This document shows positions 207 through 63,510 of a stretch of 64,000 nucleotides of DNA, piece after piece; position 1 is the stretch's first letter; each line of letters starts with the position of its first letter. Location: positions 811,757 to 875,756 of the forward strand of contig OY969414.1 of NCBI GenBank assembly GCA_963699155.1, read 5' to 3'. The notes below the pieces were generated by a model, which worked only from the letters and a program-made list of their open reading frames with translations, was not told the origin of the DNA and did no database searches. Source of the stretch: an uncultured Chlamydiales bacterium. GTDB lineage: Bacteria; Chlamydiota; Chlamydiia; Chlamydiales; JAAKFR01. The position numbers and the translations under genes were made by a program.

Positions 207-1166
207 TTAAGCACGAGGATGGGTCTTGTCGTAGACCTCTTTCTTCAGCTTGGGGGAGACGTGAGTATAGATGGTGGTGGTGGCGAGGGAGGTGTGGCCC
301 AGGAGGAGCTGGATCGTTTTGAGGTCCATGCCGTTCTCGAGCCAGTGGGTGGCGATGGTGTGGCGGATGGTGTGGGGGGTGATGTGGCCGGCAAGGCCAC
401 TCGACTTGAGGTAGGCGTCAAAGTTGCGGTCGACGGAGCGGGTGGAGAGGCGGGTACCGAGTTTGTTGAGGAAGATCGTGTGGGGGTCGGCTTCGGCTCT
501 GTGGCCGTCGGCGTCCTGGTGGCGCTCGTGGTGGTTGAGATAGGCGGTGATCCAGTCGGCCGCGTTTTTGGTGATGGGGACGATTCGCTCTTTTTTCCCT
601 TTACCACGCACTTTGAGAATGAGGGAAGAAAGGTCGCAGTCAGCACGATTGAGCCCCACCAGCTCACTGACGCGTAGTCCTGAGCTATAAAAGAGCTCCA
701 TGATGCAACGGTCGCGGAAGCCGAGATAATCGTTAGTGTCGGGTTGATCGAAGAGGCGCAGAACATGATCATAGGAGAGAGAGACGGGGATCCGCTTCTC
801 CAATTTGGGGCTTTCCAGCTCCTCTGCGGGACTTTTCTCTATCCATTTTTGGCGCACACAGAAGTTAAAAAAGGTACGTAAGGAAGAGAGGCGCCTGACT
901 ATCGTCCTTTTCTGGATCTTGGCCTCGGCCAGGGAGGCGAGAAAATGACGGAGAGTTTTGCGATCAATCTGATCGAGTGAGATCGTCTCTTTTGAGAGGG
1001 GATGTGGAATGTGGCTGATCTTTGTCCCCTGTTTTTCAGCAGGAAGATCACGTTCTAGGAACTGTTTGAGGGCATTCAGATCGATGGCATAATTGCGGAT
1101 CGTATGCTCTGAAGCATTTTTGACGGCGCGTAAGTAGTCGAGGAATTGATAGGCTTCGTGGATCAT
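207..1166 (-). CDS. xerC: Tyrosine recombinase XerC
   Basis: SEHTIRNY, YSSGLRVSEL, GKGKKER, HTIRH, LLGH..TTTIYTH catalytic R-H-R-H-Y set. Confidence 0.9.
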   Translation of the reverse strand: MIHEAYQFLDYLRAVKNASEHTIRNYAIDLNALKQFLERDLPAEKQGTKISHIPHPLSKETISLDQIDRKTLRHFLASLAEAKIQKRTIVRRLSSLRTFFNFCVRQKWIEKSPAEELESPKLEKRIPVSLSYDHVLRLFDQPDTNDYLGFRDRCIMELFYSSGLRVSELVGLNRADCDLSSLILKVRGKGKKERIVPITKNAADWITAYLNHHERHQDADGHRAEADPHTIFLNKLGTRLSTRSVDRNFDAYLKSSGLAGHITPHTIRHTIATHWLENGMDLKTIQLLLGHTSLATTTIYTHVSPKLKKEVYDKTHPRA

Positions 1167-1197
1167 ACTTTAAAAGTATGATGCATCGCTCTATTTG

Positions 1198-2097
1198 TCA
1201 AATGTTGAACACTTTCAGATCTTCTGCGGCATGAGTATTTGAAAAAATTGTGCGCGCTTCGTTTTCAAAGTCGCGCGGATTGAGATAGCGGGCTGAGAAG
1301 TGGGTGAGCACTAAGATTTCGACACCTGCTTCTTTGGCAATCGCTGCAGCCTGCTTTGCTGTGAGATGGTAATGCTTCTCAGCCAGATCATGATGCTCTT
1401 CGAGGTAGGTGCTCTCACACAAAAGAAGTTTCGCTCCCTTGGCAATCTCCACAGCACTTTTGCAGGGCCGCGTATCACTGACGATGGCGATCGCATCTCC
1501 TTTGCGGATCCAGCTCACCTCATCGAGCAAGACCCTTCTTCCCTCGATCTCGAGCTCTCCCTTTTCTTCGAGAGTGCGCACCAATGGTCCTAAAACTTTG
1601 GCCTCTTTCAGCTTGTTTGCATCAAATTTCCGCTTATCCGGCTCGGTAATTCTCCAGGCAATATTGTCGACCCCATGCTCCAAAAAGGCTGCCTCGATGC
1701 GAAAATGGCCATCCTCTTCAACGAGCCCCGCTTTGCTGACAGGATGTTCCACCACTTGAATCGTTTCATGATAGATCGTTCCATAGCGGAGACGATCAAA
1801 GTACTTTTTGCCGCTTGCAGGGTAGTAGCAGTGGACAGGATGGTTCACCTTATCCAGATTGAGCCGCATCAACATCGATCCCAGCCCCAAACAGTGATCT
1901 CCATGGAAATGGCTGACAAAGATCCGCGTCACACAGGTGGGTGCCACATTGGCGAAGATGAACTGCCTCTGGGTCCCTTCCCCCGGATCAAAGAGCAACC
2001 CCTCATCATTCCAGCGAAAAAGATAGGCCCCATGGTTCCGCCTCCTCGTCGGCTGCTGGCTCGACGACCCCAAAATAATCAAATCTTTCACAGACAT
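1198..2097 (-). CDS. rnz: Ribonuclease Z
   Basis: DPGEGTQ, SHFHGDH metallo-beta-lactamase motif, DTRP, THFSARY; ATG at 2097 chosen. Confidence 0.93.
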
Positions 2098-2190
2098 AGC
2101 CAATAAGAATACAAAGACTTTCGTAATAATTCAACGCAAAGACGCTAAGGAATGTGGCCGACAGTCTAAATCGCGCAAAATATTCCTACA

Positions 2191-2294
2191 AATTCAACGC
2201 AAAGACGCAAAGACGCAGAGACGCAAAGAAAAAAAGGCCGCTTCGCGTACCCTCCTCTTTGCTTCTTTGCGTCTCTGCGTCTTTGCGTTGAATT
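2191..2294. repeat. 104-bp palindromic REP/MITE-like element (partial arm also at 2128-2145)
   Basis: AATTCAACGCAAAGACGCAAAGACGCAGAG...CTCTGCGTCTTTGCGTTGAATT; full-length sister copy at 37919-38022. Confidence 0.9.
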
Positions 2295-2298
2295 ATTA

Positions 2299-2685
2299 CT
2301 AAACTTTAGCTTCAGTAGACTTTGGTTTTTTTGGCTTTTTAGTGGGAGGGGGTGGGGGAGGGGGTTGGCGGACGCGCATGTAGTCGACGAGGTCGATTTT
2401 GTTTTTGCGGGCGGTGGATCGCATGATGCAGTCGAGGGTGATGGTGGGGATGAGGAGGACGATGAAGGCGCCGACGCCGAAAAGGGGGGTGGTGCTGGGA
2501 AGGTAGTCGGCCGAGGTGAGGCCGATCAGGACTGCTGTTGCGAGGAGAGCTACGACTGAGGCGAGCATGAAGATATTGGCGCTCACGCGCAAACAGTCCA
2601 GTTTTTTATAGACTCTGCGATCGGGAGGGGGAGCGTGAAGTGAAACTGAGGAGCTCAAGGAAGAAGAGATAGACGTAGAGGACAT
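2299..2685 (-). CDS. Inc-like membrane protein with polyproline/basic tail
   Basis: Ser-rich N-terminus, bilobed hydrophobic segment, PPPPPPPTKKPKKPK tail. Confidence 0.65.
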   Translation of the reverse strand: MSSTSISSSLSSSVSLHAPPPDRRVYKKLDCLRVSANIFMLASVVALLATAVLIGLTSADYLPSTTPLFGVGAFIVLLIPTITLDCIMRSTARKNKIDLVDYMRVRQPPPPPPPTKKPKKPKSTEAKV

Positions 2686-2687
2686 AA

Positions 2688-7518: not shown

Positions 7519-8130
7519 ATGGAAGTCTCTGCTGAAGTCGATCTATTTTCTACCTGGCTCCTTCAATATGGCAGCTTCGTTCTCTTCTTTCTGCTCTCCC
7601 TCGGCATTTTAGCTCTCCCCGTTCCCGAGGAAACCCTGATGGTCATGTCTGGGGTTCTCATGAGTAAGGGTAAGCTCAATATCCCGCTAACCATTTTCTT
7701 CTGCTATGCTGGGGCTATCGCCGGCATCACCACGAGCTATCTTTTGGGCCGCACAGCGGGCCACTTCCTCATCACAAAGTATGGCCGCTGGGTCGGGATC
7801 ACTCCTGCCCGCCTCGAGGTCGCCCATCAGTGGTTCAGCCGCCTTGGCAAATGGCTCCTGATGGTCGGCTACTTCATTCCTGGGGTTCGCCACCTCACCG
7901 GCTTCTCCGCCGGCACTACCAGGATGGAATACCCCACATTCGCCCTCTTCGCCTATACAGGCGCCATCCTCTGGGTCTCCCTCTTCCTCGCCCTCGGCTA
8001 CTTCCTCGGTGGCTACTGCCTCAACTTCTACAACGAGCTTGAGGAGATCGACATCGTCAGCATTGCGATCATCATCCTCGCCATCCTCGTCACCATCTTT
8101 TTCATCCGCCGCCGCTCCCGCAAAACCTAA
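7519..8130 (+). CDS. DedA-family membrane protein
   Basis: LPVPEE, FIPGVRH, LGYFLG. Confidence 0.9.
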   Translation: MEVSAEVDLFSTWLLQYGSFVLFFLLSLGILALPVPEETLMVMSGVLMSKGKLNIPLTIFFCYAGAIAGITTSYLLGRTAGHFLITKYGRWVGITPARLEVAHQWFSRLGKWLLMVGYFIPGVRHLTGFSAGTTRMEYPTFALFAYTGAILWVSLFLALGYFLGGYCLNFYNELEEIDIVSIAIIILAILVTIFFIRRRSRKT

Positions 8131-8167
8131 AAATTTCAAAAAAAACCAGCATGAAAAAAAATCTTTA

Positions 8168-9041
8168 CTAAACAGAAAGGATAGGGATGAAAAAATCTTT
8201 CAGGAAAAGTATGACTTCTTCCAAGGTGACATGCTCTTCCCCGATATTCCTGAGAAAAAAATCCCAGCGTTCCATGATTTTAGGGGATTTGTAAAATGCT
8301 TCTGAAAATGCATGTGGGTTCTGATCTACGATGGTTTTCCTATTTGAAAACACTTTGAGAAGAATGGGTTTCATTTCTTGTGGTCGAATTTGGAACTGCT
8401 GGATCATTTTCCAAATATCGTAAAAATCTTTCATGCGGGTATTTGCTAGCCCTAGTTTGATGATTGCGTCCATTTTTTCTGCGATCATCGTCTCTGGTGT
8501 ATACCCCTTCAACTGAGGGCATGGAAACTCCAATAACGTGGGATAGTTCAAATCCACAGGTTGAGGAAATATTTTGTCGTTAAATCCGATGTCGATTCTC
8601 AAAGGAAGTTTGGTCGATTCTCAAAGGAAGTTTGGCTGAAAAAAGTTGTGCAAAAAATCGAGCAGACAGTCCAATGTATTCCGTTTCAATTTGAGATTCA
8701 ATGACTTTTATTTCTTTTGTATCAAATTTAATACCATCTGGTTGCACAGAAAAATCACAAATTTCTCTAAGGGATCGTCTTATATTATCGTTTGAGTTAC
8801 CAACTTTAGCAAGTAGATCAATATCCAATGTGGTGCGATGTGTTTCTGGGTTCCATACTTTAAGCATCAGTCCCCCTTTCAGAAAAAAAGTCTCTTTGTG
8901 TGGAGAAAGACTGAGCCGGTATAAAAACCGTTCCATCGCATAATAACGGAGAATTTCCTGAGTAGGGCGCTTTTTCTTTAAAGCAATATTCTTCAATTTT
9001 GTGTAAACAGACTCTTCCAGATTCTTTTTCTCACTATTCAC
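8168..9041 (-). pseudogene. AbiEii nucleotidyltransferase toxin, frameshifted by a 22-bp tandem duplication
   Basis: LKGG..RTTLDIDL in 5' ORF, AEK..TRMKDFYD in 3' ORF; duplication 8591-8612/8613-8634. Confidence 0.88.
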
Positions 9042-9656
9042 TCAACCACTCACTATTGTTTCCATGATTGGGGCTAAAATTCTCACAACTCTGCATATTT
9101 TTGCAAAATCGTACAGCTTGTCGAGGTTTGTGCGTCCCTGTCGCCAATACTCTTTGAAAGCCTCTAAAACAACATCCATTCCGATCTTTTGTCTGAACTT
9201 CAAACAGTCAGCCAATGTCTTTTCGATGCTATAAATCCTAACTTGGCACCCATCGATAGAGATAGTTTCGATGCCCTCGTGATAGGAAGCATTACTGTAT
9301 AGAAAACATCTTAGAGGAGGATATTCTATTTTGGGGATTCTGGATGCCTTTGGAAGAGCAATATCCACAGCATGAGGAATTTGAGTAGTCAAATTATAGT
9401 ATGAAAGAGCGGAGATCAAACAAATCACACCTTTAGGAATCTTTTTTGCGACAATTACCAAATCAGGTTCCGAAAAATCAGGTAATGAAACTAAACGAAA
9501 TACTCCTCTTCCAAGAGATTCAATGATCCTCTCATCCCTCATTCTGTAAAGATCTCTCGGATGAATGCCTAATTGTAGAGCCTCCGAAGTTCGTAATGTA
9601 CCACCCTTCTGTCTAAAAATATCTATGCGCTTCTCTTCTCTGGATCCACTTTCCAT
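9042..9656 (-). CDS. AbiEi antitoxin / transcriptional regulator (type IV TA)
   Basis: N-terminal wHTH with GRGVFRL, CLISAL, TTQIP, EKTLADC. Confidence 0.88.
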   Translation of the reverse strand: MESGSREEKRIDIFRQKGGTLRTSEALQLGIHPRDLYRMRDERIIESLGRGVFRLVSLPDFSEPDLVIVAKKIPKGVICLISALSYYNLTTQIPHAVDIALPKASRIPKIEYPPLRCFLYSNASYHEGIETISIDGCQVRIYSIEKTLADCLKFRQKIGMDVVLEAFKEYWRQGRTNLDKLYDFAKICRVVRILAPIMETIVSG

Positions 9657-9678
9657 ATAAAAATCTAATTAAGATTGC

Positions 9679-9726
9679 TGGATAAAAATGCTGGTTGTTT
9701 TTCGTTTCTAAAGGCAATTCTATCCA
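9679..9726. promoter_or_regulatory. Imperfect inverted repeat, putative AbiEi operator
   Basis: TGGATAAAAATGC (9679-9691) vs GCAATTCTATCCA (9714-9726), 11/13 complementary, just upstream of abiEi. Confidence 0.5.
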
Positions 9727-9868
9727 CATTGTCTAAAAAAATCTAGGGAATCTTCATCTTCATGATCCACTGCACATTCGCGAAAAAAATCAAAAATTTA
9801 ATAATATATTAATAATTATCAATTATAATATTTAATAAAAAATTAAATATGAGGTAACTATGTCAATT

Positions 9869-11125
9869 TGGTAACACCTGGGAAAAGCTGGACCCCTCAA
9901 AATTAGAACACTTAAGTTGCATGGGAACCGTCTCTTTTGAAAGGCTAAAGGAAAAAATTTTCGGGATTAAGAGAATAACGGGATTATAAGACTTTATTGA
10001 AAAATTGAGCCCGTATAAGCTGTCTTATCTTGTAAACTTAAGAGAGGTCATATGGGGCTCAGCACATATAGTATGATGATGAAAGGAACACCGCAAGAAT
10101 ATCTTTTTCAATTTAAGAAGCAGGTTGTTAAAAGTGCTCAAGCAGAAGGAATTAAGCCTGCGATGAGAAGGTGGGGCTTAGGTAGAAATACCATCCGACG
10201 TTGGTTGAGAAACTTTGAAGCGGAAGGGAATAAAGGTCTTTATGACAAAAGAAAAGGCCCTAACCATATTCCCCACAAGATTTCCCCAGAGCTAGAGAAG
10301 AAAATTATCCAAGCCCGCCACGAAGTGCCTTGTTATGGCCCCAGAAGATTGAAGTATTTTTTCAATATAGAGTGCTCATTAGATGCTATCTACAGGGTGC
10401 TTAAACAAAACGGTCTCACTGTCAAGAGACGCAAAAAATATCAAAAGAAGAACGATTTGAGAGAGGCTAAAGCAAAGTATCAGGCTTTTGGTCATATGCA
10501 AATGGATTTAAAGTATTTAAGGGATATTCCTAACTACTGGGGATAACTTAAACCTTTAAAGCTTCCACGTTTTCAATACACTGTGAGAGATACCAAATCA
10601 GGTATGCTCTTTCTAGGCTTTTCGGATGAGCTTTCAGAACTTAATGCGAGAACGATGATCGATTATGTGTTAAGACGCTTACGCTCACAAATGCCCGATA
10701 AAAAGATCATTGTGCAAACAGATAATGGTGTGGAATTTGGAGGAACAACAAGACATTTTGAGAAATCTCCCTTTTGCCAAGCTGTGCAGGCCCATGGCGG
10801 AGAGCATCTCTTCATTCCTCCGAAGCTGTGCAATGCAAATGGCGATGTGGAAAGTCTCCACAACCTTATTGAGACAGAGTTTTTTGATATTGCTAAATTT
10901 GAATCTAGGGAAGATTTTATCCGAAAAGCTGAGAGCTACCGACTCTTTTTCAATTTAGAAAGGCCTAATAGCTATAAAGGAGGCAAAACACCCTGGCTGA
11001 TTGCCCAGCAGGACTGGGCAGATAATGATCTAGCTAGTTATGCTGCAATAATAGAAACCGTCGATTTAGATAAAATGACCGTAACTGGTTATTCTAAGCG
11101 GGGTCCAGGTCTACCCAATTCTCCC
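9869..11125 (+). mobile_element. IS481-family insertion sequence with 15-bp target duplication
   Basis: GTAACTATGTCAATT at 9854-9868 and 11126-11140; subterminal IRs 9879-9896/11100-11117 match 15/18; DDE transposase inside. Confidence 0.85.
10052..11125 (+). pseudogene. IS481-family transposase with one in-frame TAA (10544-10546)
   Basis: HTH, YGPRRL, QMD, QTDNGVEF, NGDVESLH; the two ORF-track pieces are in the same frame. Confidence 0.85.
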
Positions 11126-11131
11126 GTAACT

Positions 11132-11546
11132 ATGTCAATTCAAGGAAGCAGTGAAAAAAAATCGGATTACATCTCTCTCGCGGGAGACAAAGAGTTCGAG
11201 TTGAACTTACAAGGTAAGTGCCGTCTCGATAGTTTGATGTCTATGTCACAGATGGCTACCGTGGCTGCGATTGGCTTTTGTATTGGGTATTTTAGCTGTA
11301 TACTGCCATACGGGGTTCGGAACTCCTTCGCCCCTTCCAGCTCATCCCACATTTATTGACCAAATGATATTGTCAGTAAAGGAGATACTTCAAAATCCTT
11401 TGGCAATCGTGGGTATTGTCGGCAGTAGCGTTTTTGGTGGGGTTGCTCTTGCAGGAGGCTATAAGATGCTGAAAAACCTTACCGAAGATGAAAGAAAGGA
11501 GTATTTAGAAAATTATCCTCCCCAGGAAGATCTACATCCTATCTAA
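11132..11546 (+). pseudogene. Two-TM Inc-like protein, IS-disrupted and frameshifted (~137 aa if repaired)
   Basis: MSIQGSSEKK start lies in the TSD; removing 1 nt near 11276-11279 joins AAIGF to VLGILAVY. Confidence 0.6.
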
Positions 11547-11648: not shown

Positions 11649-11825
11649 ATGCCAAGTGTCAAAGTGCGGATTGGAGAGACGATCGAGAAGGCTCTCAGAG
11701 CGTTAAAAAAGAAGCTTGATAAAGAGGGTGTGATGAAGTCGGCGAAGGCCCACCGTTTTTATGATAAGCCTTCTGTCAAAAAACGTGCGAAATCGAAAGC
11801 GGCTGCTAAATACAGAAATCGATGA
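11649..11825 (+). CDS. rpsU: 30S ribosomal protein S21 (58 aa, below ORF-track cutoff)
   Basis: [44 protein letters not shown]. Confidence 0.95.
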
Positions 11826-11839
11826 GAGCTGGCGAGCAG

Positions 11840-12997: not shown

Positions 12998-13026
12998 AGT
13001 AAGTCGATCACAAACCAGGGAGGAAC

Positions 13027-16656: not shown

Positions 16657-16697
16657 TATTTGAACGAGAATCAGTGATTCCCTTGCTGTAACAATAT

Positions 16698-16745
16698 ACC
16701 CGACGCACCATCACTCGGCTATCGCCTCGGATGATGGCGCGGGTA
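16698..16745. repeat. REP/attC-like hairpin
   Basis: ACCCGACGCACCATCA..GGCTATCGCC..GATGATGGCGCGGGT stem with bulges. Confidence 0.45.
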
Positions 16746-16888
16746 AAGCTCACCGAAGGTCGCTACGCTCCCAACGGCTCGGAAAATTCATGTTTGAGAG
16801 GATTTTTTAACATTGACATTACAGTGAGACTGGGGATGAAAGAATTCCATTCTTACGTTATTATTCATCCAAACTGAATAAGGTAACT

Positions 16889-29591: not shown

Positions 29592-29760
29592 CTAGTGCCC
29601 AACCACAAAAGTTTTTGCCATTTTGGCTGCGTCAAAGCCCCGGGGCGCAACGATCGCAAATGGGTCCATATTGGATTAATATTGACCCATTTGCGATCGT
29701 TGCTCCGCGGGAGCTTTCACGCTCGCCTAAATGGCAAAAACTTTCGTGGTCGGGCACAAG
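29592..29760. repeat. ~169-bp palindromic MITE/RPE-like element (second family)
   Basis: GTGCCCAACCACAAAAGTTTTTGCCATTT..AAATGGCAAAAACTTTCGTGGTCGGGCAC; perfect inner 20-bp stem GCAACGATCGCAAATGGGTC. Confidence 0.88.
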
Positions 29761-29768
29761 GTCAAAGC

Positions 29769-30293: not shown

Positions 30294-30302
30294 AGGAACA
30301 CT

Positions 30303-30953: not shown

Positions 30954-30964
30954 CACATGAGCTA

Positions 30965-31640: not shown

Positions 31641-31648
31641 TAGCTTCA

Positions 31649-51061: not shown

Positions 51062-52481
51062 ATTTTGTTTCATTCTCCTAATTTTTTTCAGCAGTGGGCT
51101 TTGGGGCGAAGAAAAAACTGCGCTCATTGTCGGTGATGCTGGAAAAAAAGCAGTCGTTGTTGGTGACAATGAAAAAAATAGCCTCATTGTCTGTGATAAT
51201 GGTCTTGAGATGTTCGGTTGGGATCTGGAGTTTCTCAGCCACGCAGAGCACTCTGTAGAGGCGCTCGTCTGCTTTTTTGGAGGAAGTACAGCTCGGACTC
51301 TGCTGGCGGCCATGGAGAAGAGAATCGAAGAGGTGGCTGCGCTTCAAGTCTATCTGCTCGCCTCGCCTGTGATGATGGCTCAAGAGGATTGGATCACGCT
51401 CAATAGGCTCAAGAGCCGTTTTCCCAAGAACTTTCATGTCCAATTATCGACACAGGTTCTCAAAATTTTTCCCGATGTGGCGACAATCGATAACCATGTG
51501 AAACTCTTTATCGTCGATGAGCACTACTTTTCAGCAGGAGGCACCAATTTTGAAGAGGCCCACTGCTCCAATGGCACTTTCACACCCGATAGGGAAAAGA
51601 GAGAAAATGTCCAAGGCGATAGCTTCTTACCTGCGGGAATGAGAGATCAGGATGTGGTGGGGCGCGGACCCCTAGCAAAAGAGCTGCGCTACGCTTTCTT
51701 TCAGTATTTCTCGCTCTGGGAAGATTACAATAGAACTAAGCGTCTCCGAGAAGATCCCCACCATTTTTCTAACAATGCACACTACTTTCCCCTCATCGGG
51801 CCCTCTCTTTGGGTTGACTCATTTGAAAATTTCGAGAGGAAAATCGAATTGGAAAGAGATGCCCTTCACTGCATCTTTGGAGGTCCTCACCAGAAAAGCA
51901 ATGCGATCACAGAAGAATATGTGCGCTTGATTCGGCTCGCTAAAGAGGAGATCCTCATCTCGCATCTTTATTTTTTCCCAGCAGAGCCGATTTTTCAGGC
52001 GTTGCTCGAAGCGGTCAATCGGGGTGTGAAGGTGACCATTCTGACAAATGGCCTCGATGAGCACTCCTGCGAAGGAGCGAAACTCTTTGCCTGGGCCAAT
52101 CGCCTCTCCTATGTCCCTCTTTTTTATGGGAGAACTTTTCATATTTGGGATTATTACAAAATCTCTCAGTTACCGCTAACTTCTTGCGAAATTTATGAAT
52201 ATGCCATCCCCAATGTGGTTCTCCACAAGAAAACGATGTTGGTAGATAGAAAGTATTTTCTGGTGGGCAGTTATAATCTGGGAACGAAAAGTGCGATGGG
52301 AGATTATGAGCTTGTCTTATCGATCAACTCTCCAGATGTGGCTGAGGCTATTTTCCAGATCCATCTCATCGATCGAAGCCATTCCAGGAGAGTCGCTCCC
52401 GATAAGGCAGTGCAATGGTACTTTGATCCGCTGATTTCCTCTTGGGGTGAACTGCAGAAACGGTTCGGTGGATTACTGTGA
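51051..52481 (+). CDS. Phospholipase D family protein
   Basis: HVKLFIVD..GGTN and HKKTMLVD..GSYN; signal peptide. Confidence 0.9.
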   Translation: MALRFCFILLIFFSSGLWGEEKTALIVGDAGKKAVVVGDNEKNSLIVCDNGLEMFGWDLEFLSHAEHSVEALVCFFGGSTARTLLAAMEKRIEEVAALQVYLLASPVMMAQEDWITLNRLKSRFPKNFHVQLSTQVLKIFPDVATIDNHVKLFIVDEHYFSAGGTNFEEAHCSNGTFTPDREKRENVQGDSFLPAGMRDQDVVGRGPLAKELRYAFFQYFSLWEDYNRTKRLREDPHHFSNNAHYFPLIGPSLWVDSFENFERKIELERDALHCIFGGPHQKSNAITEEYVRLIRLAKEEILISHLYFFPAEPIFQALLEAVNRGVKVTILTNGLDEHSCEGAKLFAWANRLSYVPLFYGRTFHIWDYYKISQLPLTSCEIYEYAIPNVVLHKKTMLVDRKYFLVGSYNLGTKSAMGDYELVLSINSPDVAEAIFQIHLIDRSHSRRVAPDKAVQWYFDPLISSWGELQKRFGGLL

Positions 52482-53842
52482 GGTCATTTCTTTTTCTTAT
52501 CTGTTGCTTTTTGACATGCGCTTTTGCAGAGGCAGAGACCAATCAAATCATTGCCACTGACAATGGCCTGGAGATGTTCCATTGGGATCTCGACTTTGTC
52601 CGTGAGGCTAAAGAGTCAATCGAGATCTCTGCTGGCTTATTTGGTGGAGAGATCGCCCGGAAGCTGCTCAGTGCGATCGAAACTCGCCTCGAACAAGTTT
52701 CCGAACTGCAGGTTTTTCTTTTAACGAGCCCCATTTTACTGGAGAAAGAGGATTGGCAGATCATCGAGCGGCTAAGGCAAAGGTTTCCCAGAAATTTTCA
52801 TATCGAACATGCCTCTACTGTTGTCGTCATTTGGCCTGATGTTTCTGGCATCGACAACCATGTCAAAATGATCATCGTAGATGAAAAGTACTTTTCCGCA
52901 GGCGGGACTAATTTAGACGAGTCGCAGTGTTCTGAAGGGACGTGGACTCCAGAAAAAAGTTACAATAAACTGCCAGTCATCTCCAACAACCTTCCTGCAG
53001 CGATGCGAGACCAAGATATTGTGGGAAAAGGGCCTCTTGCTACAACCTTGCGGCACAATTTTTATAAGATGTATGCCTTGTGGGAATATTACAATCAGAC
53101 GGGCCGCTTAGAAAAGGATCCCGAAAAATTTAGAGGAAAGACACGCTATTTTCCTGTGGACAATCAAGCCCATGTCGAAAGGTTTGAATTATCCAGTCAG
53201 ACTCGCACCATAAATAACCCGCAGATCAAAGTCTACATTGGAGGGCCTCATCAAAAGCAGAATGAGATCTCCCAGGAGTATATTCGTCTCATTGAATCGG
53301 CTCGAGATGAAATTATTCTCTCTCATCTCTATTTTTGCCCCGTCGATCCCATTTTCAATGCTCTACTTGCTGCAGTGAACCGGGGAGTCAAATTGACCGT
53401 TCTGACCAATGGTGTCAGCGAAATAGCGCCTCAGTACACCCAATACTTCTGCTGGGCTAATCGGATGAACTATGTCCCCATGTTTTATGGCAATACCTAC
53501 CATTTTTGGGATGTTTGGTCCCTAGCGAGTAAACCGGTTAAAAAAACAAGAATTTATGAATACCATGTCGCCGATGTCGTTCTGCACAAAAAGGTGATGA
53601 TCGTCGATGGTCGAAAAGCGATCGTGGGCAGCTACAACCTAGGGACCCGTAGCGAGATCGGCGATTATGAGATGATCTTCAGCATCGACTCTCCGGAGCT
53701 CGCAGCCGACCTAAAAAAAATCCATGAAAAAGATATCCGCTACTCCCGCGAGGTCTCTCCCCAAGAGGCCCGCGACTGGTACTTCGACCCCGTCAAATCC
53801 TACCTCGGCGAAATACAAAAACGGTTCCACGGCCTCATCTAA
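52478..53842 (+). CDS. Phospholipase D family protein (tandem paralog)
   Basis: HVKMIIVD and HKKVMIVD; signal peptide. Confidence 0.9.
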   Translation: MRSFLFLICCFLTCAFAEAETNQIIATDNGLEMFHWDLDFVREAKESIEISAGLFGGEIARKLLSAIETRLEQVSELQVFLLTSPILLEKEDWQIIERLRQRFPRNFHIEHASTVVVIWPDVSGIDNHVKMIIVDEKYFSAGGTNLDESQCSEGTWTPEKSYNKLPVISNNLPAAMRDQDIVGKGPLATTLRHNFYKMYALWEYYNQTGRLEKDPEKFRGKTRYFPVDNQAHVERFELSSQTRTINNPQIKVYIGGPHQKQNEISQEYIRLIESARDEIILSHLYFCPVDPIFNALLAAVNRGVKLTVLTNGVSEIAPQYTQYFCWANRMNYVPMFYGNTYHFWDVWSLASKPVKKTRIYEYHVADVVLHKKVMIVDGRKAIVGSYNLGTRSEIGDYEMIFSIDSPELAADLKKIHEKDIRYSREVSPQEARDWYFDPVKSYLGEIQKRFHGLI

Positions 53843-55755
53843 CCCCGGCTAATTGAGATGCTATTTGACGCCAGCTCATTTAGATGCTGACGACGAGGGG
53901 GGGTAGATCGAATTCCTGCTGCATCCACTGCGACGATGTAATAGGTCGCATGCGCTGTCTTTGAGCAAACGACAAAGACAAGTGGTCCAGAAGCTGGCAC
54001 TGTGCCCAAAACTTGAGTCAAGGCAGCATCACTAAAAATGATATAGGAAACGGGTGGAGAACCACTGGTCGGAGGCGACCAGGTGATCGTGTTTTCATAG
54101 CAGACTTGGGTCAAAAATTTGTCCACAGTTTGAGAAATCGTTCCGTTGGTAGGGGGGCCCGGGACAAAACTGATGGCAAGCGATGTGGCAGCAAAATCTG
54201 CCCCATGATTACTGAAGGTTTGTCCTGTGAATGTGCTTGAGCTCGCGATCGAGGTGCCAGCACTATTGACTACCTGGAGAGTGACAGTGAAAGGTCCGCT
54301 CGAGGCATAGGTATGAGAAACGGTGGGCGCAGTTGTGGTTACTGGGGGAGATCCATCTCCAAAATTCCAGATGTAAGAGGCAATGGTACCTACAGGTGAC
54401 ACAGACCCAGAGCCATCAAATAGGGCGGTATTGCCTGGAGCTATTGTCGCTGTGAATCGTGCCACCGGTGCTTGGTCTGGCGTAATACAGGGCCATTGGC
54501 TGTCAGTATCGTTGACAGAAGGGAGATTAAATGTAGTAGCCAAATGGGAAGAGGGTAATCCATCTACGCGTGTAACGGTTGTCGTAACGCTATCTGTTAC
54601 AAAGGCAGTCTTTGAATCAGGTGTCAGCCAAACGCCGAGAGGGGTAGTGTTAACAACAGGTAAAGTAAAACCATGAGTTGGAGACGATACAGTGACATCC
54701 AACTGTTGAAGAGTGTGTGCTCCGTGAAAGTTGCCGAGATCATAAGCAAAATTATTATCACGCGAAGCATCGAGTTCTGTCTGTAGCACACTGTTCGTTG
54801 AAGTTGATGCTAAGAATAGGGGAATGAAGTCAAAAGTTTGGAAGAGCGTATTGTGAGCATCTATGAGGATACCAAAATCTTGGTTTGGCTTCATCGTAAT
54901 CCAACCAGGGATGCCTGATGAGGGCAATGACGTTGTGCTACTCACGTCATCTGTTGAAGTATTGATTTTATATAACTTGCCTAAAGTAGCTCCTCCGATG
55001 AAGGCAGCCAGCCCATCAGGTTGAAATGCGACTCCAATACTGCTGTCACCAGCTGCCAACTGAGTCATCACTGATGTTAGTGTAGGGCTTGCTGGAGTTG
55101 TCAGATTGACAACGGCGTAACTGGCATTCGTGGCCCCATCTGTGATGTAAGCTTTTGGCTGGGTAGGAGAGATAGCCATGACATTGGGATTTTGAAGAGT
55201 GAGATTTAGAGTTCCTGCCACTGAATGGGAGGCTATATCGATCACGGTCAGCGAATCACTGCCAGCTGGCACGTTACTCACTACATAAGCATATTTGCCA
55301 AAGGGGTCGATCACTACATCTACTGGACTCGTCCCTGAAACAGGTATCGGAGAAGGATTTAACGCATGTGCATTCACGCTATAGGTATAAACGTGGTTCT
55401 GATTCACCACTGGAATAACGAGTGTCCAGTCGCCTTTGAATGTATAGAAGTCATTGGGGTGGTTAGGAGGGGAGGAGCCTGCAGGTGTGGTGACGACCAC
55501 CGTTACATTCTCCGGTACATGAGGAATTGCATTGATGTTGGAGATATCAATCGTTGAATCGTTCACAACAGTAAAAGAAGCGACCGAGGCCCCATCGACA
55601 GTCACTGAGGTAACGCCCGTAAACCCACTTCCGGAAATCACTACAGGAACAACGCCTGTATCAGCTTCAGTGTTGGGGGTAATATTTGTAATGAGCGGGA
55701 CTGCCGATAAAAAAGGACATATCGAGAAAAACAGCAGAATCAGAACTTGCTTCAT
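53839..55755 (-). CDS. Secreted IPT/TIG + beta-propeller + PKD protein with FN3-like C-terminal domain
   Basis: Signal peptide, ISGSGFTG, WNFGDG..SHTY PKD motif; tail probably frameshifted at a G7 run. Confidence 0.85.
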   Translation of the reverse strand: MKQVLILLFFSICPFLSAVPLITNITPNTEADTGVVPVVISGSGFTGVTSVTVDGASVASFTVVNDSTIDISNINAIPHVPENVTVVVTTPAGSSPPNHPNDFYTFKGDWTLVIPVVNQNHVYTYSVNAHALNPSPIPVSGTSPVDVVIDPFGKYAYVVSNVPAGSDSLTVIDIASHSVAGTLNLTLQNPNVMAISPTQPKAYITDGATNASYAVVNLTTPASPTLTSVMTQLAAGDSSIGVAFQPDGLAAFIGGATLGKLYKINTSTDDVSSTTSLPSSGIPGWITMKPNQDFGILIDAHNTLFQTFDFIPLFLASTSTNSVLQTELDASRDNNFAYDLGNFHGAHTLQQLDVTVSSPTHGFTLPVVNTTPLGVWLTPDSKTAFVTDSVTTTVTRVDGLPSSHLATTFNLPSVNDTDSQWPCITPDQAPVARFTATIAPGNTALFDGSGSVSPVGTIASYIWNFGDGSPPVTTTAPTVSHTYASSGPFTVTLQVVNSAGTSIASSSTFTGQTFSNHGADFAATSLAISFVPGPPTNGTISQTVDKFLTQVCYENTITWSPPTSGSPPVSYIIFSDAALTQVLGTVPASGPLVFVVCSKTAHATYYIVAVDAAGIRSTPPRRQHLNELASNSISISRG

Positions 55756-55874
55756 AGTGATCTCAAAAATCAAGAAGCTATTAAGTTGTCAAAGAAAAAA
55801 ATAAATACAATATCTAAGGCGAGCTCGTCATTTATTGGCGAGTGGGGTATGATGGTCGGTAAAATTGAGTGGTT

Positions 55875-59856: not shown

Positions 59857-59867
59857 ATTTATCTTGT

Positions 59868-61334: not shown

Positions 61335-61335
61335 A

Positions 61336-62786
61336 TTAACTCGTCCTGCTTCTCATCAAGTTTGGCCAAACAAAAGGAAGTTGAGTTTGTCTCTCCTGAG
61401 GAACGGAAAGCATCAAGAGAAACAGAGGGTTCACTTTCAGCTCATCGGTGGTCAGAGCTTCTAATTTTTCTAGAAGGTCAAGATTGAAGCGGATCCCCAG
61501 TGTTGTAAAAGCACTTTGATGTTTGATCACCTCCTCAAAGAGGCGCTCATAAATTCGACTGTAGTGAACAAATTGTTGAGCAAGGTCTAATATGTCTCTC
61601 CCCCCTTTTCTACCGTGAGATAGAGCGCTGCTTTCTGGAAACAGTAAGAGAGTGATTTCCAAAAGAGAATGGAGGGTTCTTGCCCCTCAAAAGGAGGGAT
61701 TGAGAGCTCTTTTTTGTAAAGATTGTGTTCCATATCGATCAAAAGCTCGCGAATGCGCATCAAAAAGGGTTGGACTTGAGCAAACTCTTTTTCAGAAGCC
61801 ATCTCTTGGACGATTTGTGAAAGAAGCGCAAAGCCCCACTGATGGTCACGAGGAACTGATGAGGCCCAATTGACATGAGCCCAGTCGTGCGGGTGGGTAA
61901 TTTCCGCGCCAATGGCATCTTGAAGATCGACTTTTTTAGGGCGCTCTCTTCCGGGAAAAGCGAGGTAGACCTCCCTGGTTCCCAGCAAGGCATTTTTAAA
62001 AATGGCAGTCACAGAGGAGAGGCCAAGGACAGGATTCATTTTTACAGGATAGCCATGTTTGACCGTGAGAAAGGCCTCCATTAGGCCAAATGAGGGAAGA
62101 AGGATGGCGACATCCCCATTGGGGACGGGGATACGACCAAAGATGTTGAAGCCTTGAAGGTAGACAGCTTCTGCAATTGTTGCTGTGGAAGCAGGGAGAA
62201 CCAAAAACTGCTGCTCGAAAAGAGGCTTCTCCTTCATGAGGGCAAAGAGTTGTTTGATCTGAGCCTCATTTAAGAGGGGTTCTTTTTTAATGTTGGCATC
62301 TTTGACCGGATTTTCCGGAGGAAGACCTTGAACAGGTTCCAACGTCTTTTTGATCAATTCAACTGCTTTTGGATTGGGTGTGCCCTCTTGAAAAAGGGGA
62401 ACTGGAGCGTAGATATCAGCTTTGTGATAAGAAAGTTCGTCGCGAAAGGTGAGGTAAGTTACTATCTCTCCTAGGGTGAATTCTCCCATGCGCAGGCCGG
62501 CAAGCGCATACCAAGGGAGGTCTTTGTCCTCGCTCATTGGAACTGTGAACTGTCGCTTATTGAACTGCTCTTTCAGGTATTTGATCGGGCCACGGTTTTG
62601 ATAACCATCGACAATCTTGTTGATCACCTTAAAGGCCGCGGCGTGAGTGCATTTTCTTTTTTCCACCACATCTTCTGCCCAAGCGCGGCAGAGGCCGTAA
62701 AAGCAGTTATAGGCATGGAATTTGGGGCTTTTCGGGTCCCAAATAGCACCTGAGGGCGGCGGAGGAGCTTTTGGAATTGCTGACAT
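61336..62786 (-). pseudogene. HDxxH-family paralog 1, 1-nt frameshift at or near the run 61600-61605
   Basis: 399-aa ORF continues in another frame (DILDLAQQ..WPNLM), matching the paralog C-termini. Confidence 0.75.
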
Positions 62787-62787
62787 A

Positions 62788-63510
62788 TTATTTCCTCGCG
62801 ACAGGGTTTTCTGGGCCTTTGAAGGGAATTTCTACAGTGGTGGGCAATTTTTGCCCGCTAGGTCTTGCCAGATCGATCCCTAGTAGTCCCATGAAGGCCA
62901 TTGCCATCAGGCCAGTGATGATAAAGCTGATTCCCATTCCCCTCAATCCTTTCGGGATATTGGAGTATTGAAGCTTTTCGCGGATGGCGGCGATCAAAAC
63001 GATTGCAAGCCACCAGCCTGCTCCTGAGCCGAGTGAAAAGATAAAAGAGGGGAGGAAAGGGTATTCACGGGTCACCATGAAGAGCACACCGCCTAAGATG
63101 GCGCAGTTGACGGTGATGAGGGGTAAAAACATGCCTAGAGCATAGTAGAGGGTAGGCGAGACCCCTTCGATGAAAATTTCCAGGACCTGAACAAAGCCGG
63201 CAATGATCGAGATGAAGACGATCAGCTCTAAGAAGCTGAGGTCGATGGTGGCGGCGTTGAGACCTGTGAAGCTAAGCCAGGAGAGAGCTCCTTTCCCTGT
63301 GATAAAGTTGTGGACCAGCCAGTTGAGAACTCCTGAAACAGCCAAAACGATCGTCACTGCCATGCCGAGGCCATTGGCTGTGGTTAATCGATTGGAGCAG
63401 GCGAGATAGCTGCACATCCCGAGAAAGTAGGAGAGGAGGATATTTTGAATAAAAAGCGTTTGGAGGAGAAGGCCGAGAAGATTCAAAGTTGTATAGTGAC
63501 CCATCCACAT
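62788..63510 (-). CDS. nqrE: Na+-translocating NADH:quinone reductase subunit E
   Basis: FLGMCSYLACS, LPLITVNCAILG; start MWMG at 63510 with GAGG SD. Confidence 0.93.
   Translation of the reverse strand: MWMGHYTTLNLLGLLLQTLFIQNILLSYFLGMCSYLACSNRLTTANGLGMAVTIVLAVSGVLNWLVHNFITGKGALSWLSFTGLNAATIDLSFLELIVFISIIAGFVQVLEIFIEGVSPTLYYALGMFLPLITVNCAILGGVLFMVTREYPFLPSFIFSLGSGAGWWLAIVLIAAIREKLQYSNIPKGLRGMGISFIITGLMAMAFMGLLGIDLARPSGQKLPTTVEIPFKGPENPVARK

What the first reader, a model, noticed from the sequence alone, without database searches (positions are those of the whole stretch)
207..63500. GC skew inverts across nearly every accessory island, as if each were a miniature origin
Seen: on the + strand, core DNA just left of an island is C-rich and core DNA just right of it is G-rich, whichever way the flanking gene points. 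Hand counts per 60 nt: 16561-16620 C25/G6 vs 16981-17040 G25/C12; 29461-29520 C35/G9 (partly a Pro-rich tail) vs 31681-31740 G30/C8. mnmA, which lies between two islands, flips inside the gene (44401-44460 G23/C13; 45181-45240 C26/G12). By eye the same holds around 2.2, 8.1, 23, 37.8, 43.4, 46.3, 53.8 and 55.9 kb, fading over a few hundred bp. Known: a C-to-G skew switch is the signature of a replication origin, and C-rich/G-poor RNA is the Rho loading signal. Inference: either repeated recombination or repair synthesis starts at these hot-spots and leaves a strand-asymmetric mutational footprint, or synonymous codons build Rho sites that insulate islands. I know of no description of this pattern in chlamydiae.
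Basis: partly seen in the sequence, partly recalled or inferred. Interest (0 to 1): 0.75.

Follow-up and report, generated by a model that had tools for sequence, protein, structure and literature searches.

The report
Silent-site C gradient along transcription units
In this chlamydia-like bacterium, silent codon positions grow steadily richer in C from the start to the end of each transcription unit, which gives a sawtooth of strand composition that only looks like many small replication origins and may instead encode where transcription should stop.

Summary
All six hand counts are exact, and the listed sites show a C-to-G rise on the + strand.

It is not specific to islands, and it is not origin-like. 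Genome-wide, sense-strand GC skew at four-fold sites falls from -0.19 to -0.43 along genes, while codon positions 1 and 2 stay flat (1322 genes). Genes on both strands do this, so every gene runs G to C from left to right on the + strand.

The gradient belongs to transcription units, not to genes. Unit 5' ends average -0.16, operon-internal junctions about -0.3 and unit 3' ends -0.50. It nearly stops at the stop codon. It is stronger beside low-GC neighbours. It is confined to this genus among the 10 relatives sampled. E. coli runs the opposite way.

My best reading (about 0.4) is selection on the nascent RNA for Rho loading at unit ends and Rho avoidance at unit starts. A position-dependent mutation bias is the main rival.

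The rho frame is broken in this assembly, but so are tuf and rpoB, so I read the breaks as assembly error.

The scan noted a similar sawtooth before in a giant-virus-like genome (e1-5666717).

The parts
1198..2685 (-). Boundary between RNase Z (1198-2103) and a 128-aa ORF (2299-2685), both on the - strand. The 5' end of the left gene is C-rich on the + strand and the 3' end of the right gene is G-rich on the + strand.
   Evidence: skew -0.15 left, +0.43 right, rise +0.58. Annotation.
7519..8602 (.). Convergent boundary. The DedA/UptA-like gene (7519-8130, +) ends C-rich and faces the first gene of a low-GC block.
   Evidence: -0.31 left, +0.12 right. Right gene GC 0.39.
8168..11359 (.). Low-GC accessory block: three unassigned ORFs on the - strand and two IS481-like transposase fragments (10052-10546 and 10583-11359).
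   Evidence: GC 0.36-0.42.: NF033577 IS481 hits at 5e-22 and 6.5e-13, each to part of the profile.
11822..16656 (+). Three-gene putative operon: dnaJ, a fused PDH E1 alpha/beta gene and a 539-aa ORF. The + strand skew falls continuously across all three genes rather than resetting in each gene.
   Evidence: 400-nt windows go from +0.20 at 11.8 kb to -0.28 at 16.2-16.6 kb.: the tight junctions at 12997 and 15036 show no jump (+0.02, -0.02).
16357..17245 (.). Convergent unit ends with the strongest switch in the window.
   Evidence: 16561-16620 C25/G6; 16981-17040 G25/C12.: -0.32 left, +0.43 right.
28341..29534 (+). DEAD-box helicase gene whose 3' end is the most C-rich stretch of the window. 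Part of this comes from a Pro-rich C-terminal tail.
   Evidence: 29461-29520 C35/G9.: the tail reads EPPPPGSPPPHRPPPHRRPPRR.: CshA/DbpA-like.
29595..31658 (.). Low-GC block of four ORFs with no family hit.
   Evidence: gene GC 0.43-0.44.: 0 families for each of the four.
31681..33462 (-). Phosphoglucomutase-like gene. Its 3' end is C-rich on the sense strand (G-rich on the + strand) and encodes ordinary amino acids.
   Evidence: 31681-31740 G30/C8.: the last 80 residues are unremarkable.: +0.45.
44391..45434 (+). mnmA, a single-gene unit that shows the whole G-to-C gradient inside one gene.
   Evidence: 44401-44460 G23/C13; 45181-45240 C26/G12.: +0.13 in the first 300 nt, -0.34 in the last 300 nt.
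52478..55773 (.). Convergent pair overlapping by 4 nt: a PLD-family gene (+) and a 644-aa ORF (-). The switch occurs with no island between them.
   Evidence: -0.11 left, +0.12 right. Both genes have GC 0.47-0.48.

Best explanation
What it is (shown, near certain). The 'mini-origin' switches are the teeth of a sawtooth. Along every transcription unit, C-ending codons become more frequent at synonymous sites from the 5' end to the 3' end of the sense strand. There are two end effects, each about 150-200 codons long, on a sense-strand baseline that already has C above G. Genes on either strand do this, so on the + strand each unit runs from G-richer to C-richer, left to right. Each unit boundary therefore looks like a C-to-G switch whichever way the genes point. 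Tight operon junctions do not show it. Low-GC neighbours amplify it. Low-GC genes themselves lack the 3' effect.

How it most likely works (inferred, about 0.4). Selection acts on the nascent RNA through the termination factor Rho, which loads on C-rich, G-poor RNA. Few unit ends in this lineage carry hairpin plus U-tract terminators, and convergent genes sit about 44-62 nt apart. A Rho loading zone would therefore have to lie inside the last few hundred nucleotides of the final ORF. Only silent sites are free to become C-rich there. Rho could load behind the last ribosome and catch the polymerase just after the stop codon. Near unit starts and inside long, busy operons such as the ribosomal protein clusters, C-rich RNA would cause premature termination, so it is held down. 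Ends that face foreign, AT-rich DNA would be under the strongest pressure to terminate.
For: Gradient at silent sites:
- Four-fold skew by gene decile falls from -0.186 to -0.427, while position 1 runs +0.13 to +0.12 and position 2 runs -0.16 to -0.18. The same holds in 648 + strand and 674 - strand genes.
- At four-fold sites C rises 0.309 to 0.413, G falls 0.212 to 0.166 and T falls 0.280 to 0.241.

It follows transcription units, not genes:
- 3' ends: convergent -0.510 (n=433); co-directional gap 30-150 nt -0.528 (204); gap under 30 nt -0.302 (543).
- 5' ends: divergent -0.150 (467); gap under 30 nt -0.276 (518).
- By quintile: first gene of an operon -0.14 to -0.29; middle genes -0.26 to -0.31; last gene -0.28 to -0.51.
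- The 5' effect is not a start-codon artefact. Codons 41-100 score -0.19 at unit starts and -0.29 at internal starts.

All codon families move the same way. All 8 four-fold families and all 7 NNY two-fold families shift to C at unit ends, with amino-acid usage nearly unchanged.

C-ending codons are not the translationally favoured set. The 25 genes of the ribosomal protein clusters have four-fold C 0.292 and G 0.263 (skew -0.05). The rest of the genome has C 0.371 and G 0.194 (skew -0.31).

The effect fades past the stop codon. After co-directional unit ends with a gap of at least 120 nt (n=155), skew per 30 nt is -0.06, -0.02, -0.04 and 0.00. Four-fold sites just upstream score -0.49.

Non-synonymous positions also move. 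In the 120 most skewed unit ends, positions 1 and 2 shift toward C (-0.01 and -0.26), so the pressure is on nucleotides rather than on tRNA choice.

Rho-type composition is enriched. Large C>G bubbles, as defined in PMC6144790, with area above 4000 occur in 19% of 205 unit 3' ends and in 3-6% of other segments.

Alternative terminators are scarce. Hairpin plus T-tract sites occur at 130 of 819 unit ends, against 87 in reversed controls.

The skew tracks context, not gene identity. Among 143 orthologue-like pairs with congeners, the 19 genes that end a unit only in the relative score -0.32 there. The 12 genes that are internal only in the relative score -0.16 there.

Islands amplify it: -0.68 against -0.53 in convergent pairs and +0.045 against -0.18 in divergent pairs.

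Published precedent. PMC13323073 (abstract and sections 7 and 8 read) shows that Rho selection shapes codon usage, and that synonymous recoding toward C/T creates Rho terminators in B. subtilis.
Against: - The evidence is compositional only. No transcript ends or Rho dependence could be examined.
- Unit 3' ends are not less structured. The mean MFE of the last 150 nt is -35.1, against -33.4 for internal ends and -36.6 for gene middles. Z-scores against synonymous-codon shuffles do not differ (-0.30, -0.40, -0.24; n=130 each).
- The average unit end is only mildly rut-like. Over all codon positions in the last 300 nt, C is 0.272 and G is 0.220. Only 110 of 373 unit ends have a 90-nt window with C at least 35% and G at most 17%.
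- The rise in C does not prefer a preceding pyrimidine (YC dimers). Families with Y or R at position 2 rise alike.
- The per-gene strength is unimodal. It is uncorrelated between orthologues that end a unit in both genomes (Spearman 0.11, n=68). That pattern fits a diffuse pressure as well as it fits tuned sites.
- Relatives with an intact rho do not all share the pattern. G004 and G016 show no gradient. G005, G009 and G021 show the opposite gradient. E. coli, the model for Rho, is also opposite.
- The rho frame in this assembly carries five 1-nt indels. I read these as assembly errors only by analogy with tuf and rpoB.
Confidence: 0.4

Rival explanations
1. Position-dependent, transcription-linked mutation bias. 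DNA damage or repair differs between the promoter-proximal and terminator-proximal parts of a unit, for example through supercoiling, R-loops or exposure of the non-template strand. Silent sites drift to different C/G/T equilibria along the unit.
For: - The shift is diffuse and unimodal across units and is not conserved gene by gene.
- It is absent from low-GC, presumably recent, genes: unit 3' ends -0.22 against gene middles -0.21. A slow mutational process would give this.
- Positions 1 and 2 also drift in the most skewed genes.
- A weak skew of the same sign persists 0-25 nt past the stop codon (-0.12).
- The sign differs between sister genera, as could follow from a change in a repair gene.
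- Fungi show a gene-anchored skew for which a mutational cause has been proposed (PMC3315797, abstract read).
Against: - Non-coding DNA right after the stop is almost unskewed (-0.06 to 0.00) where four-fold sites score -0.49. Fast turnover of spacers could weaken this argument.
- The change is not a transition signature. C gains from T, G and A together, and purines at four-fold sites fall from 0.41 to 0.35. G/(A+G) in NNR codons barely moves.
- Among genes, PC1 holds 73% of the variance and is C against A+T, with a G loading of about 0.
- Leading and lagging strand genes do not differ at 3' ends (-0.499 against -0.518).
- The highly transcribed ribosomal protein operons lose C to G, not to T.
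Confidence: 0.25
2. Another selection on transcription or RNA that is not Rho. One version is slowing of RNA polymerase on C-rich RNA when CTP is the scarcest nucleotide, which would help termination or ribosome coupling at unit ends. Another is avoidance of R-loops by keeping the non-template strand C-rich where polymerases pause or meet.
For: - The features that point to a nucleotide-level, sense-strand-specific, unit-anchored pressure fit this as well.
- The main axis of variation is C alone, as a CTP-based effect would predict.
- A CTP-based adaptive idea was proposed for the fungal pattern (PMC3315797, abstract and one passage of section 11 read).
- From my own knowledge, not tested here: chlamydiae import nucleotides from their hosts.
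Against: - Nothing here measures nucleotide pools, pausing or R-loops.
- An R-loop or pausing signal would be expected to continue through the 3' untranslated stretch, but it fades within about 25-50 nt.
- The fungal pattern has the opposite sign.
Confidence: 0.15
3. Translation-level codon selection. C-ending codons pair exactly with the G34 tRNAs. They would be favoured for speed or accuracy late in the message, as in the known rise of codon bias along E. coli genes.
For: - Every four-fold box has a GNN tRNA, and all NNY boxes are read by G34 tRNAs (40 tRNAs).
- The effect is strongest inside ORFs and drops at the stop codon.
- NNR families, each read by one tRNA, hardly change.
Against: - The gradient does not reset in each cistron. 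Operon-internal genes are flat, with 47 of 93 negative and quintiles of -0.26 to -0.31.
- First genes of operons do not reach the end value.
- Ribosomal protein genes use fewer C-ending codons than average in 13 of the 16 families that have one. C-ending codons are therefore not the optimal set, and translational selection looks weak.
- Positions 1 and 2 shift too.
Confidence: 0.07
4. Recombination, repair synthesis or replication restart begins at the islands and leaves an origin-like, strand-asymmetric footprint in the flanking core DNA.
For: - On the + strand the switch has the sign of an origin whichever way the genes point.
- The effect is larger beside low-GC DNA.
- Relative to the sense-strand baseline, the 5' and 3' deviations are roughly equal and opposite: about +0.15 and -0.20.
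Against: - The same switch occurs between core genes with no island. In the window 9 of 20 such boundaries rise by more than 0.15. Genome-wide, core genes facing core genes score -0.48 (n=261).
- It depends on operon structure.
- It is nearly absent from the spacers where the supposed start would lie.
- It is confined to silent codon positions.
- The orientation independence follows arithmetically from a sense-strand 5'-to-3' gradient.
Confidence: 0.03

Closest known systems
Rho-driven constraint on coding-strand composition (purine bias from Rho avoidance in Bacilli; Dierksheide, Taggart, Johnson and Li 2026, PMC13323073; abstract and sections 7 and 8 read)
   Same: Synonymous sites carry information for or against Rho. 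Long C-over-G stretches make Rho targets, and synonymous recoding is enough to create them. Highly expressed operons here shift away from C.
   Different: That paper describes a uniform, gene-wide purine excess in species with runaway transcription. Here the sense strand is pyrimidine-rich at four-fold sites. The signal is positional, anchored to both ends of transcription units. It would be partly a positive signal for termination, not only avoidance.
C>G bubbles / rut sites of Rho-dependent terminators (Nadiras et al. 2018, PMC6144790; passages read)
   Same: Unit 3' ends here are enriched for long C>G bubbles under that paper's 78-nt window definition.
   Different: Rut sites are individual elements, often in untranslated RNA, and are expected to be weakly structured. 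Here the signal is a diffuse statistical shift of codon choice across most unit ends. It shows no reduction of predicted structure and no YC preference.
Gradients of nucleotide and codon usage along E. coli genes (Hooper and Berg 2000; paper not held; title and one citing sentence seen in PMC2777431; content recalled)
   Same: Third-position composition changes systematically with position in the gene.
   Different: My E. coli sample runs the other way: unit 5' ends +0.03, gene middles +0.14, unit 3' ends +0.21 over 250 kb. The E. coli gradient is usually discussed per gene and linked to translation. Here it belongs to the transcription unit.
[quoted passage not shown]
   Same: A gene-anchored skew gradient that reaches four-fold sites and slightly alters amino-acid use.
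   Different: The fungal sign is opposite (C-biased 5', G-biased 3'), and that pattern extends into promoters and 3' UTRs. Here it fades within about 25-50 nt of the stop codon. Fungal genes are monocistronic Pol II units.
Replication-origin GC-skew switch
   Same: A C-to-G change of sign on the + strand.
   Different: The amplitude, site class and anchoring all differ. The true replication skew of this genome is about 0.00-0.06 per 50 kb, with extremes at 398.7 kb and 1623.4 kb.

Membership tests
Replication origin / origin-like skew switch | The switch marks the global minimum of cumulative GC skew. | tested here: not met
   the cumulative skew minimum is at contig position 398,686 and the maximum at 1,623,431. 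The window (811,757-875,756) lies inside one replichore, and its cumulative skew simply rises.
Replication origin / origin-like skew switch | The skew affects all weakly constrained sites, including non-coding DNA next to the switch. | tested here: not met
   non-coding DNA after stop codons has skew -0.12 to 0.00, where four-fold sites score -0.49 to -0.59.
Rho-dependent terminator (rut site) | A C-rich, G-poor stretch (C>G bubble of about 80 nt or more) upstream of the termination zone. | tested here: met
   bubble area above 4000 in 19% of 205 unit 3' ends against 3-6% elsewhere.: a 90-nt window with C at least 35% and G at most 17% occurs in 110 of 373 unit 3' ends, against 87 of 613 gene middles. 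This is an enrichment, not a property of every end.
Rho-dependent terminator (rut site) | Weakly structured RNA. | tested here: not met
   mean MFE and z-scores against synonymous shuffles do not differ between unit 3' ends, internal 3' ends and gene middles (n=130 each).
Rho-dependent terminator (rut site) | Enrichment of YC dimers. | tested here: not met
   the rise in C at position 3 is the same after a pyrimidine (+0.05 to +0.11) as after a purine (+0.06 to +0.12) at position 2.
Rho-dependent terminator (rut site) | A functional rho gene in the organism. | tested here: inconclusive
   the only rho locus has five 1-nt indels relative to 3 congeners. Essential tuf and rpoB are broken in the same way, so assembly error is likely. 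rho scores over the family's curated cut-off, with no stop inside, in 28 of 30 relatives; G010's is broken and G007 has no match.
Rho-dependent terminator (rut site) | Transcript ends that depend on Rho (sensitive to bicyclomycin or to Rho depletion). | not testable with these tools
   No sequencing run holding this DNA was found.
Rho-avoidance purine bias (PMC13323073) | Purine excess on the sense strand of genes. | tested here: not met
   purines make up 0.35-0.41 of four-fold sites.: sense-strand GC skew over all positions is about -0.03.
E. coli-type intragenic codon gradient | The gradient restarts in every gene and runs toward G at position 3. | tested here: not met
   there is no gradient in operon-internal genes.: E. 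coli has the opposite sign.
Fungal 5'/3' opposite GC skews (PMC3315797) | C-biased 5' end and G-biased 3' end, extending into UTRs. | tested here: not met
   the sign is reversed and the skew fades after the stop codon.

The most novel reading that the evidence does not exclude
In this chlamydial genus the boundaries of transcription units are written into silent codon positions. C enrichment over the last roughly 450 nt of each unit loads Rho so that transcription stops just after the stop codon. C is held down over the first roughly 500 nt and inside busy operons to prevent premature stops. Both signals are turned up where core genes border foreign, AT-rich DNA. This would be a genome-wide, codon-encoded system of transcriptional insulation, in a lineage with few hairpin terminators. 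It arose within one genus and has the opposite sign to the gradients of E. coli and of sister genera.
Probability: 0.3. Interest if true: 0.75.

Novelty: new variant of a known kind. Interest (0 to 1): 0.6.

Why it matters
- **Operon prediction.** If the Rho reading holds, operon ends could be read from codon usage alone in uncultured chlamydiae. These organisms lack recognisable terminators, and their transcription has hardly been studied.
- **Codon-usage theory.** It would extend the recent finding that Rho shapes codon usage from a uniform avoidance to a positional code.
- **Practical warnings, whatever the cause:**
  - Local GC-skew switches in such genomes are not evidence of origins or recombination hot-spots.
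  - GC3-based 'island' calls are confounded, because the GC content of core genes varies mainly through sense-strand C.
  - Codon models that assume uniform composition along genes are wrong here.
- **A natural comparison.** The change of sign between sister genera can be used to look for the responsible factor.

Tried and rejected
- **Sequencing runs.** I searched for public runs holding the rho stretch. No listed run held more than 5% of the sampled words, and no RNA holder was listed. I laid no reads and could not check the rho indels.
- **rho as a true pseudogene causing the pattern.** I considered this and dropped it:
  - Congeners with an intact rho show the same gradient.
  - Essential tuf has at least 5 frame breaks and rpoB is split into two frames.
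  - fusA has one in-frame TAG.
  - dnaK, three groEL copies and rplB are intact.
  - 0 of 100 G002 proteins with hits were split over frames in G000.
- **Complementarity with intrinsic terminators.** Unit ends with a hairpin plus T-tract (n=130) score -0.47, and those without (n=689) score -0.51. The difference is not meaningful.
- **Start-codon artefact** as the cause of the 5' effect: rejected.
- **RNA-structure test:** no difference.
- **Polarising substitutions with congeners:** not attempted. Median protein identity to G002 is 71%, so silent sites are saturated.
- **Bidirectional insulator** (antisense RNA also C-rich toward unit starts): weak. All-position sense skew in the first 300 nt of units is only +0.02.
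- **Papers not held:** Hooper and Berg 2000, and Qin et al. 2004.
- **Literature.** My seven searches found no description of a unit-anchored G-to-C silent-site gradient in bacteria or chlamydiae. That covers only the held library.

Full report
**1. The observation**

The window is positions 811,757-875,756 of a single 2,399,326-bp contig with 47.5% GC. NCBIfam hits to chlamydia-specific models such as TIGR03076, PRK01066, PRK06305 and PRK01061 place it in a chlamydia-like bacterium.

I compared + strand skew in the last 300 nt of the left gene with the first 300 nt of the right gene. mnmA flips inside the gene.

**2. What it really is**

No annotation was available, so I built a simple ORF caller. 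It takes the longest ORFs, scores them by codon usage trained on long ORFs and resolves overlaps greedily. It gave 2056 genes covering 87.7% of the genome.

Over 1322 genes of at least 600 nt, sense-strand GC skew at four-fold degenerate sites falls smoothly by gene decile from -0.186 to -0.427. Position 1 (+0.13 to +0.12) and position 2 (-0.16 to -0.18) hardly move. The 648 + strand and 674 - strand genes behave alike. At four-fold sites C rises from 0.309 to 0.413, G falls from 0.212 to 0.166 and T falls from 0.280 to 0.241.

Because the gradient is on the sense strand, a + gene and a - gene both run from G-richer to C-richer, left to right, on the + strand. It is a sawtooth, not a set of origins.

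**3. It belongs to transcription units, not genes**

I treated co-directional genes less than 30 nt apart as one unit. Four-fold skew in the terminal 60 codons:

| End | Context | n | Skew |
|---|---|---|---|
| 3' | convergent | 433 | -0.510 |
| 3' | co-directional, gap 30-150 nt | 204 | -0.528 |
| 3' | co-directional, gap at least 150 nt | 142 | -0.478 |
| 3' | tight junction (gap under 30 nt) | 543 | -0.302 |
| 5' | divergent | 467 | -0.150 |
| 5' | tight junction | 518 | -0.276 |

By quintile:
- single-gene units: -0.18 to -0.46
- first genes of operons: -0.14 to -0.29
- middle genes: flat, -0.26 to -0.31
- last genes: -0.28 to -0.51

Within genes, the last 100 codons are more C-skewed than the first 100 in 171 of 241 single-gene units (p = 6e-11). 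The count is 47 of 93 for genes internal at both ends.

In long genes the effect resolves into two end effects of roughly 150-200 codons on a baseline near -0.3. The 5' effect survives skipping the first 40 codons, so it is not caused by mis-set start codons.

In the window, the dnaJ to ORF-539 operon (11,822-16,656) shows one continuous fall across three genes.

**4. Islands**

The pattern exists without islands. Core genes (GC at least 0.46) whose next gene is also core end at -0.48 (n=261).

| Comparison | Next to low-GC gene | Next to core gene |
|---|---|---|
| 3' ends of core genes | -0.70 (n=67) | -0.48 (n=261) |
| 5' ends of core genes | +0.04 (n=53) | -0.19 (n=290) |
| Convergent pairs only | -0.68 (n=53) | -0.53 (n=136) |
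| Divergent pairs only | +0.045 (n=43) | -0.18 (n=163) |

Unit status is unambiguous in convergent and divergent pairs, so the amplification is not a classification artefact.

Low-GC genes themselves lack the 3' effect: unit 3' ends -0.22 against gene middles -0.21.

In the window, 19 of 31 unit boundaries rise (14 by more than 0.15), against 14 of 31 tight junctions (4 by more than 0.15). Two of those 4, at 24,000 and 31,658, have gaps of 14 and 22 nt and may be real unit boundaries.

**5. Not replication**

- The cumulative skew extremes are at 398.7 kb and 1623.4 kb.
- Per-50-kb skew is only about 0.00-0.06.
- Leading and lagging strand genes have the same 3' value, -0.499 against -0.518.

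**6. Selection or mutation**

Five results bear on this.

(a) All 8 four-fold families and all 7 NNY families shift toward C at unit ends. NNR families barely change, and amino-acid usage is nearly constant.

(b) C gains from T, G and A together, and purines drop from 0.41 to 0.35 of four-fold sites. Among genes, the first principal axis of four-fold composition (73% of variance) is C against A+T with no G loading. This is not a simple deamination signature.

(c) Non-coding DNA after the stop codon is almost unskewed. After co-directional unit ends with gaps of at least 120 nt (n=155), skew is -0.06, -0.02, -0.04 and 0.00 per 30 nt, against -0.49 at four-fold sites just upstream. In the 120 most skewed ends, downstream skew is -0.12 in the first 25 nt and then between -0.02 and -0.07, where position 3 scores -0.59. 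A regional DNA-level process should not respect the stop codon. Rapid turnover of spacers is a caveat.

(d) In those 120 genes, positions 1 and 2 are also shifted toward C (-0.01 and -0.26, against the usual +0.14 and -0.16). The pressure therefore acts on nucleotides, not on tRNA choice.

(e) C-ending codons are not the translationally favoured set. The 25 genes of the two ribosomal protein clusters have four-fold skew -0.05, against -0.31 for the rest. They use less C in 13 of the 16 families that have a C-ending codon, although every box has a G34 tRNA.

Together these favour selection on the RNA or on transcription over mutation bias or translational selection. None of them is decisive.

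**7. Why Rho, and why only about 0.4**

*For.*
- C-rich, G-poor RNA is the known loading signal of Rho.
- C>G bubbles as defined in PMC6144790 are enriched at unit 3' ends: area above 4000 in 19% of 205, against 3-6% elsewhere.
- Hairpin plus T-tract terminators are scarce: 130 of 819 unit ends, against 87 in reversed controls.
- Convergent genes sit a median 44-62 nt apart. A loading zone of 80-150 nt or more would have to lie inside the last ORF, where only silent sites are free.
- A recent study shows that Rho shapes codon usage in Bacilli, and that synonymous recoding toward C/T creates Rho terminators (PMC13323073, abstract and sections 7 and 8).
- The low C of the long ribosomal protein operons and of unit 5' ends fits avoidance of premature termination.
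- Amplification at island borders fits insulation.

*Against.*
- Unit ends are not less structured.
- The average end is only mildly C-over-G, with C 0.272 and G 0.220 over all positions.
- There is no YC-dimer preference.
- The strength is diffuse and is not conserved between orthologues (rho = 0.11, n=68).
- Relatives with an intact rho lack or reverse the gradient (section 8).

**8. Comparative picture**

I ran the same pipeline on 100-200 kb samples of each relative and on 250 kb of E. coli. A 10 x 20 kb subsample of the genome itself reproduces the full result (-0.14 / -0.55).

| Genome | Relation | Unit 5' | Unit 3' |
|---|---|---|---|
| G000 | own genome | -0.158 | -0.502 |
| G001 | same genus | -0.06 | -0.33 |
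| G003 | same genus | -0.11 | -0.37 |
| G002 | same genus | -0.17 | -0.28 |
| G004 | same family, other genus | -0.18 | -0.14 |
| G016 | same family, other genus | -0.18 | -0.20 |
| G005 | same family, other genus | -0.18 | -0.04 |
| G009 | same family, other genus | -0.22 | -0.03 |
| G025 | other family of the order | -0.26 | -0.38 |
| G023 | other family of the order | -0.29 | -0.34 |
| G021 | other family of the order | -0.28 | -0.08 |
| E. coli K-12 | control | +0.03 | +0.21 |

Standard errors are about 0.04-0.06 for the samples.

The G-to-C gradient is a derived trait of this genus. It is strongest in this genome and opposite in sign to E. coli and to two sister genera.

Among 143 orthologue-like pairs with congeners, the 3' skew follows the local context in each genome:
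- genes that end a unit only in the relative score -0.32 there (n=19);
- genes that are internal only in the relative score -0.16 there (n=12).

**9. The rho puzzle**

The only rho locus (contig 89,955-91,199) is interrupted by five single-base indels (+1, +1, +1, -1, +1) relative to three congeners. None lies in a homopolymer run. Read through, the protein is 84-87% identical to congeners, which are 88-89% identical among themselves. Among the 30 relatives, rho scores over the family's curated cut-off with no stop inside in 28; G010's is broken and G007 has no match.

I first took this as evidence against a Rho mechanism. Other checks changed that view:
- The single tuf gene has at least five frame breaks.
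- rpoB is split into two frames.
- fusA has an in-frame TAG.
- dnaK, three groEL copies and rplB are intact.
- 0 of 100 ordinary proteins compared with G002 are split.

Breaks in essential genes point to local assembly errors, so rho is probably intact in the organism. I could not verify this with reads. The congeners with an intact rho show the gradient in any case.

**10. Comparison with what is known**

Positional gradients of third-position composition are known in E. coli. I recall Hooper and Berg 2000 for this; the paper is not held, and I saw its title and a citing sentence in PMC2777431.

Gene-anchored opposite skews are known in fungi (PMC3315797). Both have the opposite sign, and the fungal one extends into UTRs.

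Rho-linked constraint on codon usage is known as a uniform purine bias (PMC13323073).

It led me to the fungal paper.

My seven literature searches found no description of a unit-anchored G-to-C silent-site gradient in bacteria or chlamydiae, within the held library.

**11. Verdict**

The 'mini-origin' and recombination reading is rejected. The 'synonymous codons build Rho sites' reading is the best available mechanism, but it is unproven. The island link is an amplification, not the cause.

I class this as a new variant of a known kind of compositional gradient. It is of moderate to good interest, because it is strong, lineage-specific, reversed in sign and directly testable.

**Limits**
- The gene models and operon calls are home-made.
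- The samples from relatives are small.
- There are no transcript data.

Noticed in passing
own genome G000:C1:89,955-91,199 (outside the window): The only rho gene is interrupted by five single-base indels relative to three congeners. None lies in a homopolymer, and the read-through protein is otherwise well conserved.
   Followed up: yes
own genome G000:C1:1,232,998-1,234,072 and 1,237,730-1,241,454 (outside the window): The single tuf gene has at least five frame breaks and rpoB is split into two frames. fusA (744,180-746,249) has one in-frame TAG. Breaks in essential genes suggest local assembly or polishing errors in some highly conserved genes of this otherwise clean single-contig assembly.
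   Followed up: partly
window 10052-11359: Two adjacent ORFs match the N-terminal and C-terminal parts of IS481-family transposases. This is a split or decayed insertion sequence inside the low-GC block at 8.2-11.4 kb.
   Followed up: no
window 13027-15036: One 669-aa ORF matches pyruvate dehydrogenase E1 alpha in residues 5-324 and E1 beta in residues 341-667. The two subunits appear fused into one gene.
   Followed up: no
window 28341-29534: A DEAD-box RNA helicase (CshA/DbpA-like) ends in a Pro/Arg/His-rich tail (EPPPPGSPPPHRPPPHRRPPRR). The tail adds to the extreme C-richness there.
   Followed up: partly
whole genome: GC content at four-fold sites varies among genes almost only through sense-strand C (PC1 73%, G loading about 0). 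'High-GC core' against 'low-GC island' contrasts in this genome are therefore partly a by-product of the C enrichment.
   Followed up: partly
whole genome: Genes are split evenly between leading and lagging strands (49.7% leading among the 1322 genes analysed). Three full-length groEL copies are present.
   Followed up: no
relatives G005, G009, G021 (loci L070-L089, L100-L109): These sister lineages show the opposite four-fold gradient, with the sense strand becoming G-richer toward unit 3' ends as in E. coli. The sign of the gradient has therefore flipped within one family.
   Followed up: partly
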